Shown here: piece by piece, positions 1 to 15,462 of the stretch
Layout: each line of letters begins with the position of its first letter
Position numbering within the stretch: the first letter of the stretch is position 1
IMG/VR virus record: IMGVR_UViG_2671180921_000033
Location: 1-19,746 of that record
From: a virus
Taxonomy: Duplodnaviria; Heunggongvirae; Uroviricota; Caudoviricetes
Strand: one strand, 5' to 3'
Length of the DNA stretch: 19,746 nucleotides
Notes under the pieces: generated by a model
Seen by the model: only the letters and a program-made list of their open reading frames with translations
Databases searched by the model: none
Told to the model about the DNA's origin: nothing
Made by a program: the position numbers and the translations under genes

Positions 1-312
1 CAGCTCAATTTCATCCATATCGGGAAACTCTGTTTCATCCGGATGAAACTCAAAATCATGCATGAGCTCACGGTATCTTGCGGCCTGAGATTCACACAGC
101 AGCGCATTTCTTGCGGGACGAAGTGTGAGCGCGGTGAAAGCAACAATGATGACCACCAGCCCCTGTAACGCGGTATTACCCACATCTGCCAGAGCAAGCC
201 CACCAGCCAGCGTCAGAATAAAATAAAGCAGATATTCCAGCCTTCGGTACAGGGTCGCCATCATCGTTTCAAGATGAAAGGAATAGCGAACGTCAAACGA
301 CACATTACGCAT
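1..312 (-). CDS. Hypothetical protein, N-terminal 104 codons only (runs off the left edge); hydrophobic stretch suggests a membrane protein
   Basis: ATG at 312 on the minus strand with no stop through position 1. Translation begins MRNVSFDVRYSFHLETMMATLYRRLEYLLYFILTLAGGLALADV. Not in the ORF track because it is truncated. No family recognised. Confidence 0.4.
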   Translation of the reverse strand, partial: MRNVSFDVRYSFHLETMMATLYRRLEYLLYFILTLAGGLALADVGNTALQGLVVIIVAFTALTLRPARNALLCESQAARYRELMHDFEFHPDETEFPDMDEIEL

Positions 313-345
313 TGCGAATAACCTACATAAACGGTAATTGCGGAA

Positions 346-371
346 ACAAAAAAGGCCCGCCGAAGCGAGCC
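346..371 (-). terminator. Rho-independent terminator closing the tRNA operon
   Basis: Minus strand reads GGCTCGC-TTCG-GCGGGCC followed by TTTTTTGTTT, directly downstream of the tRNA-Gly 3' end. Confidence 0.5.
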
Positions 372-383
372 TGATGATAAATC

Positions 384-458
<75 letters not shown>

Positions 459-461
459 ATA

Positions 462-537
<76 letters not shown>

Positions 538-603
538 GTTGGTTCCTCGGGTGTGAGTGAGATGCCCGGACGCGTAATTTGCCCTTCCCTCGGAACCGCA
601 GAG

Positions 604-631
604 ATAATACAAATAAATAACAAGAATTCAA
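604..631 (-). promoter_or_regulatory. Candidate sigma70 promoter for the tRNA-Thr/tRNA-Gly operon
   Basis: Minus strand TTGAAT - 16 nt - TATTAT with an AT-rich upstream tract, about 60 nt upstream of the tRNA-Thr 5' end. Confidence 0.4.
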
Positions 632-727
632 TATTTGCTTATTCGTCTGTCGAAAAAGCCAGCAAGCTGAAAGACCGGTATTCGCAACCACCAGCGCGTT
701 TAATGTTCTGTGCTGTTTTTCGGGCAC

Positions 728-748
728 AAAAAACCCGCCAGTGGCGGG
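728..748 (-). terminator. Rho-independent terminator downstream of the MazF-like gene
   Basis: Minus strand hairpin CCCGCCACTGGCGGG followed by TTTTTT. Confidence 0.45.
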
Positions 749-771
749 GATCTTTTGATAAAAACGACAAA

Positions 772-793
772 GGCACCATCAAGGTGCCTTTTA
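772..793. terminator. Second hairpin terminator, bidirectional-looking
   Basis: GGCACC-ATCAA-GGTGCC followed by TTTTAC on plus; on minus the same hairpin is followed by TTTGTCGTTTTT. Confidence 0.35.
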
Positions 794-931
794 CACAGGG
801 GCAGCAGGCTTGTCATCACCTTATTGCTACTCCTGGCTTCCTGTTCGGAAGTCTCACAAGTCCCATCAGGGTACAGCGACAGTATCAGTCAACACACTAT
901 GTGTGTCAATATAAATTCATATCGAATTCGA

Positions 932-1333
932 TTATCGATACAGATAAGCCATCCCTATCCCGTGCAATACCGCCCGTTTAATATTCTCAAACTCATCTTC
1001 CGCGATCATAGGAACAATATAATTTCGCCCTTCCCAGGTTCTGGTTTTTATGCGATCCAGTCGGCTCAATGAAACCGTCATCAACATGTCACATTTTACC
1101 CAACAAGTAATATGCTCATTACCAGGAATGGGGTTTTCTGATAACTCATGATGGCAATCTCTGCGAGGGATCGGTTCAGTAGTGCTTATTGGTACCACTG
1201 TTACCAATTGATTGTTGTGTCTGTTTCTGGACACGACTACCACTGGCCTGACCTTGACTATTTCAGGAACAACCATTCCCCGAAAATCACACATTAAAAC
1301 AGAACGAACAGACGGCTGATACTTTAACACCAT
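932..1333 (-). CDS. MazF/PemK-like toxin (putative endoribonuclease), apparently without an adjacent antitoxin gene
   Basis: Translation from ATG at 1333: MVLKYQPSVRSVLMCDFRGMVVPEIVKVRPVVVVSRNRHNNQLVTVVPISTTEP... The pattern (RP-hydrophobic-VVS, NN, VVPITT) is typical of the MazF/PemK/Kid fold. The ORF-track version starts 26 codons upstream at a GTG. Confidence 0.5.
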   Translation of the reverse strand: MVLKYQPSVRSVLMCDFRGMVVPEIVKVRPVVVVSRNRHNNQLVTVVPISTTEPIPRRDCHHELSENPIPGNEHITCWVKCDMLMTVSLSRLDRIKTRTWEGRNYIVPMIAEDEFENIKRAVLHGIGMAYLYR

Positions 1334-1436
1334 AAATCTCTTTGCCTGATAATGACGACTTGTGAACTCCACTACAAACAAAATGATTCTGCTGAACAGG
1401 CAGTTCCGCACTGTGCATTATAACCTGTTAAGCCAA

Positions 1437-1460
1437 CAAAAAAACCCGCTCGGCGGCGGG
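1437..1460 (-). terminator. Rho-independent terminator after the ORF6N antirepressor-like gene
   Basis: Minus strand CCCGC-CGCCGA-GCGGG followed by TTTTTTTG. Confidence 0.55.
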
Positions 1461-1538
1461 TTTAAGCTGTGTGGCGTAGTAACCACTCTTAACAGGATAT
1501 TCAACTTTTTACGATCGTAAAGCGTTCAGGAAAAATTT

Positions 1539-2099
1539 TTAAAGCCGCATCAGTCGTTCCACCAGCTGATCTTTACGGGCAACGATCCAGCCGCGTTGTT
1601 CCAGATAAAATTTGAACCGTTCCAGAGTGCATACCATCGCATCGGCGGGCACTTTTTCCGCGAAGTCGACCTGACCGTGTTTATCGAAGTGGATCAGTAA
1701 TGCGCATCCATCATTTTCGGTGGGGGAGCTTTGTTTTGCTGGTGGCTGTTTCTGGCTGAAATAACAGTCTTCCAGTTTTTCGAACACTTCCCATGCCTGA
1801 TCGGTTTCGAGCATTTTGGCGTGGCGTGCTGCGCCTCGTTCTGTCCAGAGGACGAGGGAGCGGGCGCGTTTTGCAACTGACTTACTATCTGTAAGCCTGT
1901 TCTTGAATTCTCTTAGCTCCGTACCTTCGATTTTAAAAAAATGCTTACCTTCAATAAACCGCTCCCGATTCCGGGTATGGTTCACCTGAATATTTATAGC
2001 CTCAGTACCATATAGCTGAGCAAGTAGTTCGGTAGTGATAACGGGGATCTGGTTGTGGGTGATTGCAGGAAGAGTGTTGACAGAAATTTGAACAGTCAT
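1539..2099 (-). CDS. Phage antirepressor-like protein, ORF6N/KilA-N-type N-terminal domain plus a C-terminal domain shared with the Rha protein at 14908..15462
   Basis: N-terminus PVITTELLAQLYGTEAINIQVNHTRNRERFIEGKHFFKIEGTELREFKN matches the ORF6N-domain pattern. C-terminus LLIHFDKHGQVDFAEKVPADAMVCTLERFKFYLEQRGWIV parallels LVVHFDEHGNIRFTETVPDGALVCTLDTFRFYLEKQGWTLV in the Rha ORF. SD GAGGTCG precedes the ATG. Confidence 0.75.
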   Translation of the reverse strand: MTVQISVNTLPAITHNQIPVITTELLAQLYGTEAINIQVNHTRNRERFIEGKHFFKIEGTELREFKNRLTDSKSVAKRARSLVLWTERGAARHAKMLETDQAWEVFEKLEDCYFSQKQPPAKQSSPTENDGCALLIHFDKHGQVDFAEKVPADAMVCTLERFKFYLEQRGWIVARKDQLVERLMRL

Positions 2100-2260
2100 A
2101 ACGACCTCGCGTTTCGATAATTTTTACCTCACCACCGTCAGGTTCCAATCATCGGGTGGCGAACTGTGCAGGGTTGGAACTACCGGTCGAAACATCCGGC
2201 GCACCTTTCGGTGCCCCCACACAGTCCACCATAAATCGCGAATGTGACTGTGCTTAGCGC

Positions 2261-2283
2261 ATAAAAAAACCGCCAGCGCGGTT
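2261..2283 (-). terminator. tR'-like intrinsic terminator downstream of the late promoter
   Basis: Minus strand AACCGC-GCTG-GCGGTT followed by TTTTTTTA, about 75 nt downstream of the candidate PR' start. Confidence 0.6.
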
Positions 2284-2343
2284 ATGCACCGTTTCGATAT
2301 CCGGGGTTCCAATCCCGACGCCAGATTTTGCTGACGCGTGAGG

Positions 2344-2373
2344 AATATAGCCCCGGACAATGTGTCTGGTCAA
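2344..2373 (-). promoter_or_regulatory. PR'-like late promoter (candidate Q-utilisation region) immediately downstream of the Q gene
   Basis: Minus strand TTGACC - 17 nt - CTATAT starts 5 nt after the Q stop codon. The position is as in lambdoid PR'/qut/tR' modules. Confidence 0.45.
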
Positions 2374-2377
2374 GCAC

Positions 2378-2764
2378 CTACATAATTCGTTCTACGTATC
2401 TGTCCATCTCCAGCCGGATATCAAGCATCATCAACATGCCATCGATAACCCCTTCCGCTTTCTGCAGGCGCTTGCCAATACAGGTATCCGAACACCCATG
2501 CTTTCGTGCCAGTCCCATAAAAGTCATTCCACCTACGTAATAATCCACCAACAAATCGTGCAAATCCTGATTTTTCTTGTTCAACCGGGCCATACAGCCA
2601 CAAATTATCATTGCATCATTATCAGAACACTGAGGACGTGATTTCACTTTCGGCGGGATTAATCCTTTAAAACCAGCAGCGATTGACGCCCATGACACAT
2701 CTTCGTGGTTGTTTGCAGCCCATGCCCCCCACCGCTCCATCACCTGCTGAATATCACGCACCAT
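2378..2764 (-). CDS. Late-gene antiterminator Q (phage antitermination protein Q family)
   Basis: Translation [61 protein letters not shown]...DIRLEMD closely resembles, from memory, the Q homologues of E. coli cryptic prophages (QuuD-type). ATG at 2764; the ORF-track version starts at the GTG at 2773. Confidence 0.75.
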
Positions 2765-3131
2765 CGTTATCACCTGTAATTTCGTAAACCTTCACACCCA
2801 GCCGACCACCAGGAACGACCTGACCGCGCACTATATTGATTTCATCAAACTGCTCGTCGTCTATGAGTAGTCCTGCATGGGTCAGTGCATCCAGTGGTGC
2901 TTTCAACAGATTGTCCAGGTCACGACGGCGCTTATCCGGTGGCTCCACAATCATCTTTATCGCCAGCCTTCCGGACAGGTTTAATTTCAGCCACTGCTGG
3001 CGAACAATTAGCGCCACATCACGGCGATAACGCTTTCCTGCTTCCGAGATGAAATACGTATTGCCATGACGTCGCCAGTAGGTATTCACCGTCGGCGGGT
3101 AAGGCAAAACAAATTCTATGCGTTCAGTCAT
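2754..3131 (-). CDS. rusA: RusA Holliday-junction resolvase
   Basis: Translation [43 protein letters not shown]...[29 protein letters not shown] carries the RusA hallmark motifs (PP-NxYx[11 protein letters not shown]). Its start abuts the DUF968 stop. Confidence 0.8.
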
Positions 3132-4187
3132 TCATGCTTTCCACTTCAGGACACCCGAATTTCTCGCGTGCATTAAAAAACGAATCAGCAACAACAGCTG
3201 GCTGCCGTGTTTTTCTTCAAAATCTTTTACCCCGGCGTGCAGTTCGTTATGACATTTACGGCACAGCGGAATAACAAACAAATCATCAGCCTTTGTTCCC
3301 ATCCCTCCCAGTCCATGACCAATGATGTGATGCGGATCATCTGCCTGATTACCGCACGTCATGCATTTCTGCGTTTTTACCCAGCGCGTGTATACAGGCA
3401 TCTCTTCCCGTTGTGGTTTCTGGCGCTGGAGATACTGAGCCGGAGAATCCGGATCAACGGCAATGCTGACCACCGTCTTTTCCTGTGGCGGGTTTTGCTG
3501 GTGGGCGTGAGGCAGCGGCGCAAGATTTTTTGTGCGCTGCTTCAGTATGCTGGTGGCTGTCTGTTCTCCCGGTATGATGTCGCTTTCGCGGTACACCGAG
3601 CGGATTTTTTCCGCACGCAATCCCAGCGAACGACGCAATACCGCTTCCGGTAGCGCGTCCGCCACCTGATTGCGGACCGCCCACCAGGATAATTCAGCCA
3701 GAGATAATTCACGCTCCTGCGTACCGCTTATTGCGTGACCGATGACGTCAATCATCCATGCTGACAGGTTTTGATGAGCAAGTTGCTCGAGTGATTCGGC
3801 TGTCTGGTCACGCAACTGGTTGTCGCAGTGCCAGCACAACACCATCGCGCCGGTACCGTAACGATGTATGACGGTTTCGCTGTGGTGATAATCGCCGTGT
3901 GGCCACTGGCAGGATTTAATATGGCGCAACAGCCAGTCAGACAATGCGCCAGCGCCGCCAGCAGCACGAATCACCCGTGCGTTACTGAAAAACGGCAGCA
4001 ATGTTTTGTCTTCCACCAGTGGCTGGCGAACGGCGGGAACGACCCCGGACGGCAGATTACGCATGCTTTTCGGTTCAGGCTCCACCAGCACACGCCCCTG
4101 CATAAACAAAGGCATCGCATCAGGACCGGGCCTGAAAAGTACAATCCCCAGGCGGTGAGCAATTTCAGGAGTCACTAATACCCTCAC
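3132..4187 (-). CDS. DUF968-like prophage protein with a C-terminal HNH-like Cys/His motif
   Basis: 351 codons with a GTG start preceded by SD GGAGG. C-terminal CMTCGNQADDPHHIIGHGLGGMGTKADDLFVIPLCRKCHNELH. Size and position next to Q resemble YdfU-type prophage genes, as far as I recall. Confidence 0.55.
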   Translation of the reverse strand: MRVLVTPEIAHRLGIVLFRPGPDAMPLFMQGRVLVEPEPKSMRNLPSGVVPAVRQPLVEDKTLLPFFSNARVIRAAGGAGALSDWLLRHIKSCQWPHGDYHHSETVIHRYGTGAMVLCWHCDNQLRDQTAESLEQLAHQNLSAWMIDVIGHAISGTQERELSLAELSWWAVRNQVADALPEAVLRRSLGLRAEKIRSVYRESDIIPGEQTATSILKQRTKNLAPLPHAHQQNPPQEKTVVSIAVDPDSPAQYLQRQKPQREEMPVYTRWVKTQKCMTCGNQADDPHHIIGHGLGGMGTKADDLFVIPLCRKCHNELHAGVKDFEEKHGSQLLLLIRFLMHARNSGVLKWKA

Positions 4188-4188
4188 G

Positions 4189-4467
4189 TTACCTCCAGAT
4201 CCGTTGCTGGAATGTGCGGGACGGACGCGGTGGGCGCTCGGAGTACGGCAGCCTGACGGAGATTATCCAGTGTCGGAAGTCAAGACTGAGGTCTTTCCTG
4301 ACCTCGCGTCCGCGCCTGCGATAACACTGAATCAGCCACTCGGCCTGTTCTTCAGTGCATGGTGGGTGTTGGTACCAGTCGGTTTTAAATGCGTGAAAAC
4401 GCCGTCCGTGCATGCTGGCAAAGACGGCTGAATTATCAGGATTGTGTAGTCTGGAATTTTGCGCCAT
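4189..4467 (-). CDS. Hypothetical nin-region protein (92 aa)
   Basis: Intact ORF, co-oriented with and separated by 1 nt from the DUF968 gene. No family recognised. Confidence 0.4.
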   Translation of the reverse strand: MAQNSRLHNPDNSAVFASMHGRRFHAFKTDWYQHPPCTEEQAEWLIQCYRRRGREVRKDLSLDFRHWIISVRLPYSERPPRPSRTFQQRIWR

Positions 4468-4587
4468 CGGTTGTCTCTGCTGGCGCAGCAGGTGCCAGTT
4501 GTTCAGACTGGCGTGACAGATTATAACTCATAAAGAATAAAAATGACAAAATCTGCCAAAAAATAAAAATACGAAAAACAAGTTCTG

Positions 4588-4920
4588 TTACGACACCTTC
4601 CTGAAAATTGCCAGCGGTGTCATACCATAGGAAGTTCCTCTCCTCCCAATCATTTCCCGAATACCTTCAAGCATATAATCTATTGCAGATCTGATTTCGT
4701 TAGAAGGAATTTCTGGCTCTGAAACAGTCTCGTCACTTATATCCGGGAGCGCATCTATAACACCGATGACATACCATTCACCACGTATTCTTGAACCATA
4801 CTTTAATGCAAGATTTCCCACATCCAAAGCTAAATCATCAGCCTTGACCGACATCCAGAATATATTTTCTTGATCATCAAGAAGCTCTATCTGTGTAGAG
4901 AACGGGAGTAAAGAAAACAT
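4588..4920 (-). CDS. Hypothetical protein (110 aa), third gene of an AT-rich 3-gene cassette
   Basis: ORF starts 13 nt after the stop of the upstream gene. Acidic protein (MFSLLPFSTQIELLDDQENIFWMSVKADDLALDVGNL...). No family recognised. Confidence 0.5.
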   Translation of the reverse strand: MFSLLPFSTQIELLDDQENIFWMSVKADDLALDVGNLALKYGSRIRGEWYVIGVIDALPDISDETVSEPEIPSNEIRSAIDYMLEGIREMIGRRGTSYGMTPLAIFRKVS

Positions 4921-4933
4921 GTTAGCAGCAATT

Positions 4934-5416
4934 TTAGTATGATAAATTTCTTCTTGAATGTTTTTTTTTCTGATTTGGTGATTTAGTCTGCTTTAGCTCT
5001 TTTCGTTTTGCATCTTTATACATAGGAAAAACATCATGAGCCATTTTCACATCAAATAATTTGATATGCCCTTTTACCATCACCAGACTTCCAATTTCTG
5101 CATTTTCTAAGCTCGTTGCCACCAAGCCTTGTTCGTGCAACTTATCAAAAAAATTTAATGGTAAAGACCATGATGAGTCAAAATGCCGCTCTTGCGTTCT
5201 TGCAAAAGAATCACCCGCATTTTTCCTGGCATTAAATAATGAAACGCCACCTTTAAGTTCATTTAATGAATGCTCAGAACTGGACGAGATTTGTTTTACA
5301 GCATTCAATACTCCCGATGGAAATAATTGCGCAGTGAAGTAACCTACGCGCTCTTTGTCAAGATAAAGGTAATCAAATAGTGAATCTACAGCTTGACAAT
5401 CTTGATCCATTGGCAT
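4934..5416 (-). CDS. Hypothetical protein (about 160 aa), second gene of the AT-rich 3-gene cassette
   Basis: Start ATGCCAATGG preceded by SD AAAGAGGTG, overlapping the upstream small ORF by 44 nt. Lys-rich C-terminal tail. No family recognised. Confidence 0.5.
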   Translation of the reverse strand: MPMDQDCQAVDSLFDYLYLDKERVGYFTAQLFPSGVLNAVKQISSSSEHSLNELKGGVSLFNARKNAGDSFARTQERHFDSSWSLPLNFFDKLHEQGLVATSLENAEIGSLVMVKGHIKLFDVKMAHDVFPMYKDAKRKELKQTKSPNQKKKHSRRNLSY

Positions 5417-5552
5417 GCACCTCTTTGATCCTTGCTTTTTCCTCAGCAATTTTTCTTTGCTTTTCTTCGATTTCATCATACATCAATTGCATTTCAGCGA
5501 TGTCGAACGGCTTTGAACCACTTTTAAGCGATCTCACCAGTTTGCGGATCAT
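5373..5552 (-). CDS. Small hypothetical protein (59 aa), first gene of the AT-rich 3-gene cassette
   Basis: ATG at 5552 preceded by SD AGAGGGGA. Translation MIRKLVRSLKSGSKPFDIAEMQLMYDEIEEKQRKIAEEKARIKEV. Below the ORF-track length cutoff. Confidence 0.35.
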   Translation of the reverse strand: MIRKLVRSLKSGSKPFDIAEMQLMYDEIEEKQRKIAEEKARIKEVHANGSRLSSCRFTI

Positions 5553-5692: not shown

Positions 5693-5848
5693 TTACTCCT
5701 CAGGTTCGTAAGCTGTGAAGACAGCGACCTCCGTCTGGCCGGTTCGGATTCGTACCTCGCAGAGGTCTTTCCTCGTTACCAGTGCCGTCACAATGACGGT
5801 TAAACAGATGACGATCAGGGCGATTAACATCGCCTTTTGCTGCTTCAT
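5693..5848 (-). CDS. hok: Hok/Gef-family type I toxin
   Basis: Translation MKQQKAMLIALIVICLTVIVTALVTRKDLCEVRIRTGQTEVAVFTAYEPEE (51 aa) has the Hok signature: TM helix then RK-LCE-R-G-EVAAF. SD AAGGAGAAG precedes the ATG. Confidence 0.8.
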   Translation of the reverse strand: MKQQKAMLIALIVICLTVIVTALVTRKDLCEVRIRTGQTEVAVFTAYEPEE

Positions 5849-5894
5849 AGCCTGCTTCTCCTTGCCTTTCGGCACGTAAGAGGCTAACATCCAT
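5700..5894 (-). CDS. mok-like overlapping reading frame (translational coupler for hok)
   Basis: 64-codon frame starting at ATG 5894 and overlapping hok almost entirely, as in hok/mok/sok loci. Start choice within the 107-codon ORF-track frame is uncertain. Confidence 0.35.
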   Translation of the reverse strand: MDVSLLRAERQGEAGYEAAKGDVNRPDRHLFNRHCDGTGNEERPLRGTNPNRPDGGRCLHSLRT

Positions 5895-5965
5895 ATGTCT
5901 AGCATGAAATTGGCCTAAGTTTAATATTAAACGTCTTGCGGGACGCGTAATGTTAACTGGGCTTT
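5895..5965 (+). ncRNA. Possible Sok-like antisense RNA (approximate coordinates)
   Basis: Candidate plus-strand promoter TTGCCT - 17 nt - TAACAT (5862..5890) facing into the hok/mok leader. Ends not defined; inferred from hok/sok architecture. Confidence 0.2.
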
Positions 5966-6245
5966 TCTCTATCTGCCGTTGGTGTTCATGCCCGAGGCAG
6001 ATAGCCTCAAGCACACGCAGCAATTTTACTTAACTATTTTTCCGAAAAATTAATTATTACTAATGCATAGTTTATAAATCACACGATGATATTATAAATC
6101 TAGTGTAAGGGAACATTTAAGTTAAGAATCACATTTTACTAGCCAAAAACATAAAACAGATCTCTTAATAATAAGCAGCTTTTATATAAAAACCACGATG
6201 TGTTTTCATAATAATATGCAGTACCAGCTACTCAGCAATATGAGG

Positions 6246-12160: not shown

Positions 12161-12196
12161 TTTGCCCTCCTCTAAAAACTATAAGCAAAGCCTACA

Positions 12197-12229
12197 ATAA
12201 AAAACTGTATACGATCAACAGTTTTTTAT
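12197..12229. promoter_or_regulatory. Operator-like inverted repeat in the divergent promoter region
   Basis: Perfect 12-bp arms ATAAAAAACTGT - 9 bp - ACAGTTTTTTAT between the Cro-like and repressor genes. Confidence 0.5.
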
Positions 12230-12268
12230 TGTGATGCTTTTAACAGTATTTACCTGTAAAATTGAATA

Positions 12269-12670
12269 ATGATGAGCGCCCTAGAAGTATCTATGTACAG
12301 AATCAGCAAGCTTCTTCAGGAAACTGGATGGAGCCAGGCTGAGCTTGCCCGTAGAATTGGTGTGACACAACAAACTGTTCAACAATGGGTCAGCGGTAAG
12401 GCTACACCTAAAGCCTCAAGTTTGGATAAACTGGTTGAGGTTTCAGGGCATCCATTGCATTGGTTTTTATTGCCTCCTGAAGAGGGTGAGCAAATTTTCA
12501 CCCCTGACACGATGAAAATTGGTCCTCGCCAACGCGAACTGCTCCAAGCTTTTAGTGCGTTTCCTGAGGAAGACCAAGAAAAAATGCTTCAAGAAATCAA
12601 AGACAAGAAAAAATCAATGGAAGAAACCATTGCTCGGTGGCTGGCTGCACAAAAAAGCCGCCGGGCGTGA
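12269..12670 (+). CDS. XRE-family HTH repressor (PaaR-like; candidate prophage repressor)
   Basis: HTH segment WSQAELARRIGVTQQTVQQWVSGK. First gene of an operon with the antitoxin and toxin below. Start could be the ATG at 12269 or at 12293. Confidence 0.7.
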   Translation: MMSALEVSMYRISKLLQETGWSQAELARRIGVTQQTVQQWVSGKATPKASSLDKLVEVSGHPLHWFLLPPEEGEQIFTPDTMKIGPRQRELLQAFSAFPEEDQEKMLQEIKDKKKSMEETIARWLAAQKSRRA

Positions 12671-12697: not shown

Positions 12698-12889
12698 ATG
12701 GGTACAGCCCTTTCTCCGATAGTTTCAGAATTCGAAACTACCGAACAAGAAAACAGTTACAACGAATGGTTGCGCACTAAAGTAACGTCAAGCCTTGCAG
12801 GCACTCGCCCCGCAATTCCACATGACGAGGTAATGGCTGAAATGGAAAATCTTATTGCTCAAATTGCTGTAACTAACAGGAGCGAGTAA
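12698..12889 (+). CDS. PaaA2-like antitoxin
   Basis: 63 aa, MGTALSPIVSEFETTEQENSYNEWLRTKVTSSLAGTRPAIPHDEV; strong SD AAGAGGAG. Resembles, from memory, the PaaA2 antitoxin of E. coli three-component ParE systems. Confidence 0.65.
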   Translation: MGTALSPIVSEFETTEQENSYNEWLRTKVTSSLAGTRPAIPHDEVMAEMENLIAQIAVTNRSE

Positions 12890-13176
12890 TGTTACCCATT
12901 TTATGGCTACCGTCTGCTCGCGATGATTTGCGTCAGATCATAACTTACATCGCCAAGGAGAACCCACCGGCAGCACGTAGACTAAAAATACGCATTGAAA
13001 CATCGGTATTACCTCTATCTGAGCATCCGTACTTATATCCACCAAGCGAACGGGTTTCTGGATTGAGAGAGATCGTGACCCACCCTAACTACATAATCCT
13101 GTACAGAGTAGCTGCTTCAAGCATTGAGATTGTAAGCGTGACACATTCTCGGCGACAATTTCCCTTCTCTATCTGA
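12889..13176 (+). CDS. ParE/RelE-family toxin
   Basis: 95 aa, MLPILWLPSARDDLRQIITYIAKENPPAARRL...REIVTHPNYIILYRV. Its start overlaps the antitoxin stop by 1 nt (TAATG). Confidence 0.8.
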   Translation: MLPILWLPSARDDLRQIITYIAKENPPAARRLKIRIETSVLPLSEHPYLYPPSERVSGLREIVTHPNYIILYRVAASSIEIVSVTHSRRQFPFSI

Positions 13177-13219: not shown

Positions 13220-13233
13220 GCCCAAAACAACAA

Positions 13234-13272
13234 TTAAAAACTGTTGACATAAAACAGTTTTTAATTGTAGAT
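13234..13272 (+). promoter_or_regulatory. Second operator-like inverted repeat overlapping a candidate PL-like promoter
   Basis: Perfect 11-bp arms TTAAAAACTGT - 9 bp - ACAGTTTTTAA. TTGACA at 13244..13249 lies inside the repeat, with a weak -10 (GTAGAT/TAGATT) 17-18 nt downstream. Confidence 0.5.
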
Positions 13273-14040: not shown

Positions 14041-14626
14041 TTTATCCTCCATTAAGGTTCTGGGTTAGAAATGGAGACCAACACGCTGCTACGTGTGGTC
14101 GTGCGCCGGACACGGATAAGAATCCGGCACTGACAGTTTACTGAAAAGATATATCCCTGAAAAATCAGGGCATAACACGAAAGCGCACGGCGAAGTCCTT
14201 CTCCCTTAGAGCTGTCGTTAAATTTAATTCGACCGTGCGCTTCCGGTTGTGGCAATCCGCGAAATGGCGCGGCGGTAAGTATGGCAGGGGTTATTTCTTT
14301 CTCCTGGTTAGGACGCCGGGTTGTCAGGTTGACCATACGCCTGAGTGACAACCCCGTCACAACATCTCCATGTTTGTTGGTTGGCACCGGGAACTTTGGC
14401 GGAATCAGTTTTTGCTTCGCTACTGCTCTTCCGCCCTTTTTTAAAGTGAATTTTGTGATGCGGTGAATGCGGCTCAGCGCACGCGGAACAGTTAAAAACA
14501 CAAGTGTTATGGGTGAATCATCCGGCGTTAATTGTTAACTGGTTAACGTCACCTGGAGGCACCAGGCACCGCATCAACAAAGTTCACTTCGGTGATGAAA
14601 GGTAGAGAAAATGTTGAATGTAGCTA

Positions 14627-14655
14627 TTGAAAACCTGAACGGGTGGAATTATAGT
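14627..14655 (+). promoter_or_regulatory. Second PR'-like promoter (homologous to the region downstream of Q)
   Basis: TTGAAA - 17 nt - TATAGT. The following roughly 250 bp align in patches with the reverse complement of 2100..2370. Confidence 0.4.
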
Positions 14656-14715
14656 GCATCCGCACCTCATAAAACGGGTGTCGGGCGTGGAAACCCGATG
14701 TTCACTAACGCGCAT

Positions 14716-14739
14716 AACCGCGCTCAGGCGGTTTTTTTA
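14716..14739 (+). terminator. tR'-like intrinsic terminator, second copy
   Basis: AACCGC-GCTCAG-GCGGTT followed by TTTTTTTA; near-identical to the minus-strand terminator at 2261..2283. Confidence 0.6.
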
Positions 14740-14907
14740 TGCGTAATGCACAGCCACATTCAGATTATGGTGGGACGTGCAGGGCAGCCGCAAGGCTGGC
14801 CGGGTTCGTTAGTGACCGGTATTTCCACCCCTGTACGTCTCACCACCCTTATGGTCGTGGAAAACCTTGGTGGTGAGTTAATCAAATTCACTAACGAGGC
14901 TGCTATC

Positions 14908-15462
14908 ATGGCTACTATCCCTACCCTTTCTCACCCTGACGTAACCATCAAAAATGGTCGCGCTGTCACTACGTCTGTTGCGGTTGCAGAGTTCTTCCGC
15001 AAAATGCACAAGGACGTTTTGCGCAAAATTGAAACGCTAGAATGCTCTGAAGATTTTAACGAGCGCAATTTTACGCCCGTTACCTACACCGACGCCAAAG
15101 GCGAAAAACGACCAATGTACCAAATCACCAAAAACGGCTTCGTTTTCCTGGTGATGGGTTTCACCGGCAAAAAAGCCGCCGCATTCAAAGAAGCCTACAT
15201 CGCTGAGTTCGACCGCATGGAGGCAGAGCTGCGTCAGAATAACACCCCGCCCGCTGACAAAATTATTCCGGGTGATGGTCGCACTCTCGTTGTTCACTTC
15301 GACGAACACGGCAACATCAGATTCACCGAAACCGTTCCTGACGGCGCTCTCGTCTGTACCCTGGATACCTTCCGCTTTTATCTGGAGAAACAGGGCTGGA
15401 CTCTTGTTAACCGTAGCGCAATTAAAAATATGACCGTCGAACAGTTGCTGGGTATTAAATAG
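14908..15462 (+). CDS. Rha-family phage regulatory protein (antirepressor)
   Basis: ATG at 14908 with SD GAGG. Translation MATIPTLSHPDVTIKNGRAVTTSVAVAEFFRKMHKDVLRKIETL...FNERNFTPVTY...ITKNGFVFLVMGFTGKKAAAFKEAYIAEF matches the Rha pattern. The ORF-track 5' extension to 14611 runs through a promoter and terminator and is rejected. Confidence 0.85.
   Translation: MATIPTLSHPDVTIKNGRAVTTSVAVAEFFRKMHKDVLRKIETLECSEDFNERNFTPVTYTDAKGEKRPMYQITKNGFVFLVMGFTGKKAAAFKEAYIAEFDRMEAELRQNNTPPADKIIPGDGRTLVVHFDEHGNIRFTETVPDGALVCTLDTFRFYLEKQGWTLVNRSAIKNMTVEQLLGIK

What the first reader, a model, noticed from the sequence alone, without database searches (positions are those of the whole stretch)
1539..2099. Two antirepressor-like proteins share a C-terminal domain but carry different N-terminal domains
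The ORF6N-type protein here and the Rha-type protein at 14908..15462 end in clearly related segments (…HFDKHGQVDFAEKVPADAMVCTLERFKFYLEQRGW… versus …HFDEHGNIRFTETVPDGALVCTLDTFRFYLEKQGW…), while their N-terminal domains are unrelated. Together with the shared upstream leader this looks like modular shuffling of a leader-plus-tail cassette around different DNA-binding heads.
Basis: seen in the sequence. Interest (0 to 1): 0.4.

Follow-up and report, generated by a model that had tools for sequence, protein, structure and literature searches.

The report
Two RNA-gated antirepressor genes sharing one tail
One lambdoid prophage carries two copies of a known antisense-RNA-controlled "antirepressor" gene cassette whose proteins share a small, unannotated C-terminal domain behind different N-terminal domains; this is a clean but ordinary case of the domain swapping already described for this protein network.

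Summary
The ORF6N protein (1539-2099, minus strand) and the Rha protein (14908-15462) align only over their last ~85 residues (41% identity, E=1e-21). The heads belong to different Pfam families.

The "shared leader" is a known RNA cassette: own promoter, IsrK sRNA (a1/b1 sites plus terminator), C4 antisense RNA, then a2/b2 sites at the ribosome-binding site. Protein A is the orthologue of Gifsy-1 AnrP (59% identity, same Q-isrK-C4-gene layout).

The two C4 RNAs have different recognition sequences. Each matches only its own leader, so the two cassettes are probably regulated independently.

In other prophages the same tail follows ORF6N, two Rha types and AntA heads. The same leader and head also occur with other tails (e.g. 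P22_AR_C). DNA identity by module shows leader, head and tail exchange separately, not as a "leader-plus-tail" unit.

The tail has no Pfam model and no structural match. It is a narrow enterobacterial family with a weak, unproven link to the small antirepressor Rem.

Domain swapping in this "Bro network" and its link to C4/isrK RNAs are published. Verdict: a new member of a known kind, of modest interest.

The parts
2344..2373 (-). Cassette A promoter (TTGACC-18-TATATT), immediately after the Q gene stop
   Evidence: 10/12 consensus match; aligns with the cassette B promoter
2263..2337 (-). IsrK-type sRNA of cassette A. Carries C4 target sites a1 (2306-2312, TTGGAAC) and b1 (2291-2297, TCGAAAC) and an intrinsic terminator (2268-2283 plus T-run)
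   Evidence: Rfam isrK 74.9 bits (GA 50); c4-a1b1 47.8 bits at 2298-2350; terminator; complementarity
2152..2236 (-). C4 antisense RNA of cassette A; recognition elements GTTTCGA (b') and GTTCCAA (a')
   Evidence: Rfam C4 73.9 bits (GA 45); elements
2105..2148 (-). Downstream C4 targets of cassette A: a2 (2142-2148), b2 (2111-2117), then SD GAGG (2105-2108), which sits two bases after b2
   Evidence: Exact complements of the C4-A elements; sequence read directly
1539..2099 (-). Gene A, AnrP orthologue, 186 aa. ORF6N winged-helix-like head (aa 1-112 = 1764-2099), disordered linker (aa 113-130 = 1710-1763), shared tail (aa 131-186 = 1542-1709)
   Evidence: 59% identity to Gifsy-1 STM2616 over 98%; AF2 domain boundaries
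1442..1463 (-). Terminator-like hairpin after gene A
14627..14655 (+). Cassette B promoter (TTGAAA-17-TATAGT)
   Evidence: 10/12 consensus match
14662..14738 (+). IsrK-type sRNA of cassette B, with a1 (14687-14693, GTGGAAA), b1 (14702-14710, TCACTAACG) and terminator (14716-14733 plus T-run)
   Evidence: Rfam isrK 63.6 bits (GA 50)
14763..14850 (+). C4 antisense RNA of cassette B; recognition elements CGTTAGTGA (b') and TTTCCAC (a')
   Evidence: Rfam C4 80.3 bits
14857..14899 (+). Downstream C4 targets of cassette B: a2 (14857-14863) and b2 (14888-14897), which overlaps SD GAGG (14896-14899)
   Evidence: sequence read directly
14908..15462 (+). Gene B, 184 aa. Phage_pRha head (about aa 1-108), linker, shared tail (BLAST-aligned from aa 101 = 15208; folded core about aa 125-184)
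14611..14907 (+). Open frame through leader B, in frame with gene B ('Ash'-like translation of the isrK/C4 region); its ATG lies upstream of the cassette promoter
   Evidence: Pfam Phage_ASH 56 bits; open in all B-type loci
12269..12670 (+). Prophage repressor, short DicA/Gifsy class (133 aa, no cleavage domain); presumed target of antirepression (context, inferred)
   Evidence: 28% identity to DicA over 111 aligned residues (query 22-129), E=3e-12; PHROG repressor hits

Best explanation
Shown: the window is a Rac/Qin-like lambdoid prophage with two paralogous copies of the isrK/C4 (P1 immI-type, Gifsy-1 isrK-anrP-type) antisense-RNA-gated cassette. One lies just after Q; the other lies in the pL operon before kil/recE. 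Each cassette has its own promoter, an IsrK sRNA (a1/b1 sites plus terminator), a C4 antisense RNA, a2/b2 sites beside or overlapping the SD, and a single gene. Each gene encodes a two-domain 'Bro-network' protein: a winged-helix-like head (ORF6N in A, Rha in B), a disordered linker of about 20 residues, and a common small alpha/beta tail of about 55 residues. Leader, head and tail are separately exchangeable modules. The exchange points lie between leader and head and in the linker between head and tail (the latter is the protein junction seen). The two C4 RNAs have non-cross-reacting recognition sequences. Inferred: C4 pairs with a2/b2 and blocks translation of its own gene only, so the two genes are held off independently. 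IsrK, which carries the same sites, may titrate C4, as suggested by the Gifsy-1 result that IsrK supplied in trans activates anrP translation. Once made, the proteins act like AnrP, as antirepressors that relieve the non-cleavable DicA/Gifsy-type repressor. I judge it most likely, though unproven, that the shared tail is the common protein-protein interaction module, either contacting the repressor or mediating oligomerisation, and that the heads supply DNA tethering or specificity.
For: RNA parts: Rfam isrK and C4 are above gathering score at both loci, and promoters and terminators are present. Each C4 has two elements whose exact complements sit at homologous upstream and downstream positions in its own leader only. 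Across 22 cassettes the elements vary (at least 9 a' types) and always co-vary with their targets. Orthology: Gifsy-1 has Q-isrK-C4-STM2616(AnrP)-tRNA, and protein A is 59% identical over 98% of its length. AnrP expression raises antQ mRNA, and IsrK in trans activates anrP translation (PMC4825925). Modularity: tail similarity E=1e-21; the same tail follows ORF6N, two Rha types and AntA; per-module DNA identities; the same leader and head carry P22_AR_C or another tail. The AF2 model shows two domains and a linker with pLDDT below 50. The head resembles winged-helix DNA binders. Target class: the window repressor is DicA-like, and all four repressor types next to B-type cassettes are short DicA-like proteins. 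Rem, the antirepressor of DicA, belongs to phrog_340 (4e-21), which both tails hit at about 1e-5 (PMC10448788).
Confidence: 0.6

Rival explanations
1. The proteins are DNA-binding transcription regulators (repressors or activators, like the Bro-network protein CapR) rather than antirepressors. On this view the shared tail is simply a dimerisation domain that lets winged-helix heads bind palindromic sites.
For: The head A model matches MerR, Par, RacA, Xis and Dachshund winged-helix DNA binders. The layout of DNA-binding head, flexible linker and small C-terminal domain is typical of dimeric repressors. PHROGs label many relatives 'transcriptional regulator'. CapR is a Bro-network repressor (PMC10111431). 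Tail type does not track repressor type.
Against: AnrP, the orthologue of A, increased transcription of the repressor-controlled antQ operon when expressed (PMC4825925). The cassette is the one that controls ant in P1/P7 (my knowledge of the P1 literature). The prophage repressor is of the class that depends on antirepressors.
Confidence: 0.3
2. The tail is a fused Rem/GfoA-like small antirepressor and is the actual effector. It binds a conserved part of DicA/Gifsy-class repressors, and the heads are accessory.
For: Both tails hit phrog_340 (E about 1e-5, profile columns 33-73), and Rem is a strong member of it (4e-21). hhalign places Rem's 'LREGEFVTSLQALK' on the tail's 'VPDGALVCTLDTFR'. Sister prophages carry Rem where this window lacks it. 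The tail is constant across four DicA-like repressor types, which share a C-terminal motif. P0049 shows the tail can occur without a Bro head.
Against: Profile-profile significance is poor (probability 2%). There is no PF27490 assignment and no structural comparison was possible. ORF6N heads with quite different tails are also annotated as antirepressors.
Confidence: 0.2
3. There was no shuffling: the two genes are an old whole-gene duplication in which the heads diverged beyond recognition while the tails stayed similar.
For: Both heads match the same columns of phrog_373 and phrog_63, so they may be distant homologues. The leaders are also homologous.
Against: Tails that are 87% identical in DNA sit behind heads at background identity in other prophages. 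The tail also follows an AntA head. The same head carries P22_AR_C. C4 specificity, head and tail assort independently.
Confidence: 0.05

Closest known systems
Gifsy-1 isrK-orf45-anrP locus (Salmonella; PMC4825925)
   Same: Cassette A has the same order: Q gene, promoter, isrK, C4 region ('orf45'), then a 186/187-aa ORF6N protein with a colinear tail, then tRNA genes. Protein A is 59% identical to STM2616/AnrP.
   Different: The AnrP tail is a divergent variant (about 30% identity to tail A, my estimate from the alignment). No isrJ was detected after gene A. In A, the small ORF that starts at the C4 5' AUG ends about 50 nt before the gene start (read from the sequence) rather than overlapping it. 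This prophage also has a second cassette (B), with a Rha head, in the pL operon.
P1/P7 immI operon (c4-icd-ant), the antisense C4 paradigm (my knowledge of the literature; Rfam RF01695 and RF03163)
   Same: A C4 RNA with two recognition elements, a1/b1 upstream and a2/b2 at the translation start of the controlled gene. Specificity differs between cassettes through compensatory changes, as between P1 and P7.
   Different: There is no icd-like coupled ORF: only 52-57 nt separate C4 from the gene. An IsrK terminator lies between a1/b1 and C4. The controlled proteins have a different architecture. Two heteroimmune cassettes sit in a single lambdoid prophage.
[quoted passage not shown]
   Same: The heads are ORF6N and Phage_pRha. 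Domains recombine freely. The genes are associated with C4/isrK immunity RNAs, and the leader translation hits Phage_ASH.
   Different: The shared tail is not among the ten listed Pfam domains and has no Pfam or NCBIfam model in the copies searched. That paper's own extra 'b' segments were not checked.
Stx-phage ORF6N + P22_AR_C antirepressor (Stx2a_F451 BAT32104.1)
   Same: The isrK and C4 leader is 88% identical to leader A, and the ORF6N head is 71% identical in DNA.
   Different: The C-terminal domain is P22_AR_C rather than this tail, and the cassette sits in the nin region before roi.
Rem (Qin) and GfoA-type small antirepressors of DicA/Gifsy-class repressors (PMC10448788; PMC3121763 was listed but not read)
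   Same: They occur in prophages with short, non-cleavable repressors like the one here. Rem and the tail both match phrog_340.
   Different: Rem is a standalone 83-aa protein at a different locus (between hok and DUF968). Homology to the tail is not established.

Membership tests
isrK/C4 (P1 immI-type) antisense-RNA-controlled cassette | C4 antisense RNA gene upstream of the controlled gene | tested here: met
   Rfam RF01695 scores 73.9 bits (A) and 80.3 bits (B) against a gathering score of 45
isrK/C4 (P1 immI-type) antisense-RNA-controlled cassette | Upstream a1/b1 target element / IsrK sRNA with terminator | tested here: met
   isrK scores 74.9 and 63.6 bits (GA 50). c4-a1b1 scores 47.8 bits in A (GA 46.7) but only 23.3 bits in B.
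isrK/C4 (P1 immI-type) antisense-RNA-controlled cassette | Two C4 elements complementary to sites both upstream and at the translation start, co-varying between cassettes | tested here: met
   Exact 7-9 nt complements at homologous positions in each cassette's own leader only. Across 22 cassettes at least one element (a') always has complements on both sides; both elements were found in 13 of them.
isrK/C4 (P1 immI-type) antisense-RNA-controlled cassette | icd-like ORF translationally coupled to ant (P1), or orf45 whose stop overlaps the start of anrP (Gifsy-1) | tested here: not met
   Only 52-57 nt separate C4 from the ATG. In A the ORF starting at the C4 AUG stops about 50 nt before the gene (read). 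In B it runs in frame into the gene.
isrK/C4 (P1 immI-type) antisense-RNA-controlled cassette | C4 actually represses, and the product actually antagonises a repressor | not testable with these tools
   Requires reporter and binding assays
AnrP family (Gifsy-1 STM2616/SL2578) | Full-length colinear homology: ORF6N head plus C-terminal domain, about 186 aa | tested here: met
   For A: 59% identity over 185 residues, E=2e-71. For B: only the tail region aligns, and weakly (E=0.14), so B is a paralogue with a different head rather than an AnrP orthologue.
AnrP family (Gifsy-1 STM2616/SL2578) | Position directly downstream of the Q antiterminator gene, behind isrK | tested here: met
   A: Q at 2378-2773, then the cassette. 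B: not met, because it lies in the pL operon.
Bro network / Pfam ORF6N and Phage_pRha | Pfam hit above the curated cut-off | tested here: met
   ORF6N 75.9 bits (cut-off 27.8); Phage_pRha 108.7 bits (cut-off 29.9); TIGR02681 108 bits
Rem / PF27490 small antirepressors (for the tail) | Significant sequence or profile similarity to Rem | tested here: inconclusive
   Both tails hit phrog_340 at 1e-5 to 4e-5, and Rem hits it at 4e-21. hhalign gives E=0.025 and probability 2%. No PF27490 is listed in the precomputed domains.
Rem / PF27490 small antirepressors (for the tail) | Same fold as Rem | not tested
PDB and BFVD gave no neighbours.

The most novel reading that the evidence does not exclude
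The shared tail is a Rem-like effector that binds a conserved C-terminal surface of DicA/Gifsy-class repressors. Bro-network heads are then interchangeable adaptors, and one prophage uses two orthogonal C4 RNA locks to gate the same effector through two independent channels, one in the early-left operon and one next to Q. This would link the small Gifsy/Rem antirepressors to the large Bro-network antirepressors and assign a function to an unannotated domain.
Probability: 0.2. Interest if true: 0.55.

Novelty: new member of a known kind. Interest (0 to 1): 0.3.

Why it matters
The value is mainly in annotation and in giving an experimental handle.

1. The C-terminal domain of AnrP-type proteins is a distinct, recurrent module of about 55 residues. 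It has no Pfam model in the copy searched, so it could be defined as a family.
2. The window is a compact natural example of two heteroimmune C4/IsrK switches in one prophage. It gives ready-made orthogonal pairs for testing how C4, IsrK and the a/b sites interact.
3. Gene callers often fuse the isrK/C4 leader to the downstream gene, producing 'Ash family' or 280-aa 'Rha' proteins. Recognising the RNA genes would correct those annotations.

None of this overturns current understanding of prophage induction.

Tried and rejected
- **Word-indexed homologue search with the tail profile:** it returned mostly fragments. I replaced it with the exhaustive representative search.
- **The search for related loci with the 11-sequence tail alignment:** The species-representative genome set gave only 5 loci.
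- **Rem-tail homology:** not significant with a single Rem sequence or with the Rem-family profile. I kept it only as a lead.
- **Head-to-head homology by local hhalign:** not significant (E=0.18) with shallow alignments of Neff about 2. Pfam gives no cross-hits even at E<=1.
- **Sequence search of the PDB with both proteins:** no hits at E<=1.
- **LexA boxes as an induction input:** only one-mismatch matches, at chance frequency.
- **Co-variation of repressor type with head or tail type:** none found.
- **The cassette A promoter as the Q-dependent late promoter pR':** considered but not pursued, because the same cassette occurs away from Q in other phages (nin region in F451, pL operon here).

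Full report
**1. Observation.**
The ORF at 1539-2099 lies on the minus strand and encodes a 186-aa protein, "A". The ORF at 14908-15462 on the plus strand encodes a 184-aa protein, "B". Pfam assigns ORF6N to A13-96 (E=3e-21) and Phage_pRha to B21-105 (E=2e-31), and NCBIfam agrees for B. BLASTP aligns only A106-186 with B101-183: 35 of 85 residues identical, E=1e-21.

**2. Context.**
The window is a Rac/Qin-like lambdoid prophage, only about 87% identical to E. coli relatives. The one 100%-identical fragment of A in the protein collection is from Escherichia marmotae.
- On the minus strand are cro-like, cII-like, replication and nin genes, a hok/sok module, DUF968/HNH, RusA and Q (2378-2773). 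Cassette A follows, then a PemK/MazF-like ORF and two tRNAs.
- On the plus strand are a 133-aa repressor (12269-12670), cassette B, kil, recE and int.
- The repressor is DicA-like over most of its length (28% identity, E=3e-12). This is the short, non-cleavable class that is controlled by antirepressors (PMC10448788).
- No LexA box occurs above chance.

**3. The "shared leader" is a known RNA cassette.**
Rfam finds isrK (74.9 and 63.6 bits; GA 50) and C4 antisense RNA (73.9 and 80.3 bits; GA 45) directly upstream of both genes, and c4-a1b1 above threshold for A. The two leaders align over about 260 nt. Each has a sigma-70-like promoter matching 10 of 12 consensus positions and an intrinsic terminator at the end of isrK.

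Each C4 has two exposed elements whose exact complements lie at homologous positions upstream (a1, b1, inside isrK) and downstream (a2, b2):

| Cassette | a' element / target | b' element / target |
|---|---|---|
| A | GTTCCAA / TTGGAAC | GTTTCGA / TCGAAAC |
| B | TTTCCAC / GTGGAAA | CGTTAGTGA / TCACTAACG |

Site b2 sits two bases before the Shine-Dalgarno sequence in A and overlaps it in B. There is no cross-complementarity at these sites between the two cassettes. So the two cassettes are predicted to be heteroimmune, in the P1-versus-P7 sense. Only 52-57 nt separate C4 from the start codon, so there is no icd-like ORF.

**4. Orthology to AnrP.**
The best phage match to A is Gifsy-1 STM2616: 98% coverage, 59% identity, E=2e-71 pairwise. 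It lies in the same order, Q-isrK-C4-gene-tRNA. This is the isrK-orf45-anrP locus. There, IsrK supplied in trans activates anrP translation about 140-fold, and anrP expression raises antQ mRNA (PMC4825925). That paper notes that the orf45 nucleotide sequence is conserved while its amino-acid sequence varies, and that an 80-nt processed species exists. Both fit "orf45" overlapping the C4 gene, which is where Rfam places C4 in Gifsy-1. That reading is my inference.

**5. The tail.**
- It has no Pfam or NCBIfam model. It matches PHROGs 2379, 995, 25059, 22471 and 340.
- An exhaustive HMMER scan of 1.84 billion representatives found only 21 hits at E<=1e-3 and 11 at E<=1e-10, so the family is narrow.
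- The architectures found are ORF6N+tail, Rha+tail, AntA+tail (P0042), and a 171-aa protein with the tail at its N-terminus (P0049).
- The AF2 model of the tail alone has pLDDT 76. It shows a beta-hairpin, a short strand, a helix, then short C-terminal helices; the full-length model adds a strand between them.
- The full-length A model has a confident head (residues 1-112, pLDDT 80-92), a disordered linker (111-130, pLDDT below 50) and a separate tail.

**6. Modular exchange.**
The 85 loci encoding the tail gave 52 distinct open frames. A-type tails with long identical stretches follow ORF6N heads and a second Rha type (55% identical to head B). B-type tails follow several Rha variants. The middle of each head is itself mosaic between conserved ends. 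There are also truncated and pseudogene forms.

DNA identity by module:

| Pair | Leader | Head | Tail |
|---|---|---|---|
| window A vs window B | 61% | 43% (background) | 59% |
| L047 (Rha + tail A) vs L025 (ORF6N + tail A) | 62% | 43% (background) | 87% |
| Stx2a_F451 vs window A | 88% | 71% | 45% (background) |

The F451 protein carries P22_AR_C instead of this tail, and VT2phi_272 carries yet another tail. Both have the isrK/C4 leader.

All 18 representative tail loci, and Gifsy-1, have isrK and C4 upstream of the tail-bearing gene. So in this sample the tail always comes with the leader, but the leader is not specific to the tail.

C4 specificity types (at least 9 a' and 10 b' variants) assort independently of head and tail. 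In the sister prophage L091, a second, inverted Rha-head gene ends in 213 nt that are 91% identical to tail A. Conserved tails and leaders could therefore act as homology arms for swapping heads; this is an inference.

**7. Are the heads unrelated?**
BLAST and Pfam show no similarity, and hhalign with shallow alignments is not significant (E=0.18). However, both heads match the same columns of phrog_373 (E=9e-21 and 8e-29) and of phrog_63. Both families are also listed as members of the published "Bro network". Distant homology is likely but not demonstrated here.

**8. Function of the tail.**
Rem, the Qin antirepressor of DicA, is a strong member of phrog_340 (4e-21). Both tails hit that family at about 1e-5. 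hhalign aligns the expected motif but without significance (probability 2%). Sister prophages that are 97.5% identical over window positions 1-4488 carry Rem between hok and DUF968, whereas this window has none.

Across the B-type loci, tail B stays 89-92% identical while the neighbouring repressors fall into four short DicA-like types. Head variants do not map one-to-one onto repressor types. This is compatible with the tail contacting a conserved repressor surface. It is equally compatible with a dimerisation role or with a target acting in trans.

**9. Comparison with what is known, and novelty.**
Domain swapping among ORF6N, Rha, AntA, Bro-N, KilA-N, ANT and P22_AR proteins, and their association with C4/isrK-type immunity RNAs, is published. 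So is the P4 case in which the CI RNA lies inside the Bro-network gene eta (PMC10111431). The AnrP locus has been characterised.

What this analysis adds:
- It delimits the AnrP C-terminal domain as a separate, unannotated and narrowly distributed module.
- It shows that one prophage carries two cassettes with orthogonal C4 specificities and homologous tails.
- It shows that leader, head and tail are exchanged separately.

**10. Verdict.**
This is a new member of a known kind, with interest about 0.3. The most novel reading that remains open is a Rem-like effector tail gated by two orthogonal RNA locks. I give it a probability of about 0.2.

Noticed in passing
window 14611-14907 (+): The reading frame through leader B (isrK and C4) is open and in frame with the Rha gene, giving a 283-aa ORF. 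Its translation hits Pfam Phage_ASH (56 bits). The frame is open in all the distinct B-type open frames recovered from other loci, and its ATG lies upstream of the cassette promoter. It could therefore be translated only from pL read-through, which recalls P4 eta/CI. Many database 'Ash family' or long 'Rha' proteins may be this leader translated.
   Followed up: partly
window 4588-5479 (-) compared with L091-L093 303-566: Sister prophages that are 97.5% identical over window positions 1-4488 carry a Rem (PF27490) antirepressor gene between hok and the DUF968 gene. This window has no Rem homologue anywhere. Two ORFs matching phrog_9699 occupy that position instead.
   Followed up: partly
L091 6112-6324 compared with window 1543-1755: In a sister prophage, a second Rha-head gene in inverted orientation about 2.5 kb from the ORF6N gene ends in 213 nt that are 91% identical to tail A DNA. 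That is a possible substrate for recombination or inversion between tails.
   Followed up: no
window 5843-6016 (-) and 5693-5905 (-): A hok/sok-type toxin-antisense module: sok RNA scores 95 bits (GA 59), next to a 70-aa Hok-like ORF in the nin region.
   Followed up: no
window 14385-14436 and 14449-14581 (+): DicF-like (37.8 bits) and STnc100-like (38.9 bits) RNA matches, both below Rfam gathering scores, lie just upstream of cassette B. They overlap the 149-aa minus-strand ORF 14052-14501, which has no PHROG hit and may not be a real gene.
   Followed up: no
window 12192-12232 and 13230-13270: Two 41-nt palindromic repeats (83% complementary; each contains CTGT-N9-ACAG) flank the repressor gene and the 95-aa ORF at 12889-13176 that follows it. 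They are probably the OR and OL operators. The second contains a TTGACA hexamer.
   Followed up: no
window 384-537 (-): tRNA-Gly(TCC) and tRNA-Thr(TGT) lie downstream of Q and cassette A, in the position where Stx and Gifsy phages carry tRNAs.
   Followed up: yes
window 2152-2231 (-): The conserved AUG at the 5' end of C4-A opens a 27-codon ORF (MVDCVGAPKG...ATR*) that ends about 50 nt before gene A. This differs from Gifsy-1 orf45, whose stop codon overlaps the anrP start. Read by eye from the sequence.
   Followed up: no
loci L011/L072 (one contig) and L077 (both strands): Other prophages also carry two tail-bearing cassettes. In both cases where both leaders were available, the two C4 specificities differ, as in this window. 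With at least 9 types this is expected by chance, so it is not evidence of selection.
   Followed up: partly
L090 1370-1453 (+) (Escherichia phage P13357): Here an ORF6N-head gene is preceded by a match to Rfam sRNA-Xcc1 (79.6 bits) rather than C4, and a separate isrK and C4 pair lies about 900 nt upstream. sRNA-Xcc1 may be a C4-like relative doing the same job.
   Followed up: no
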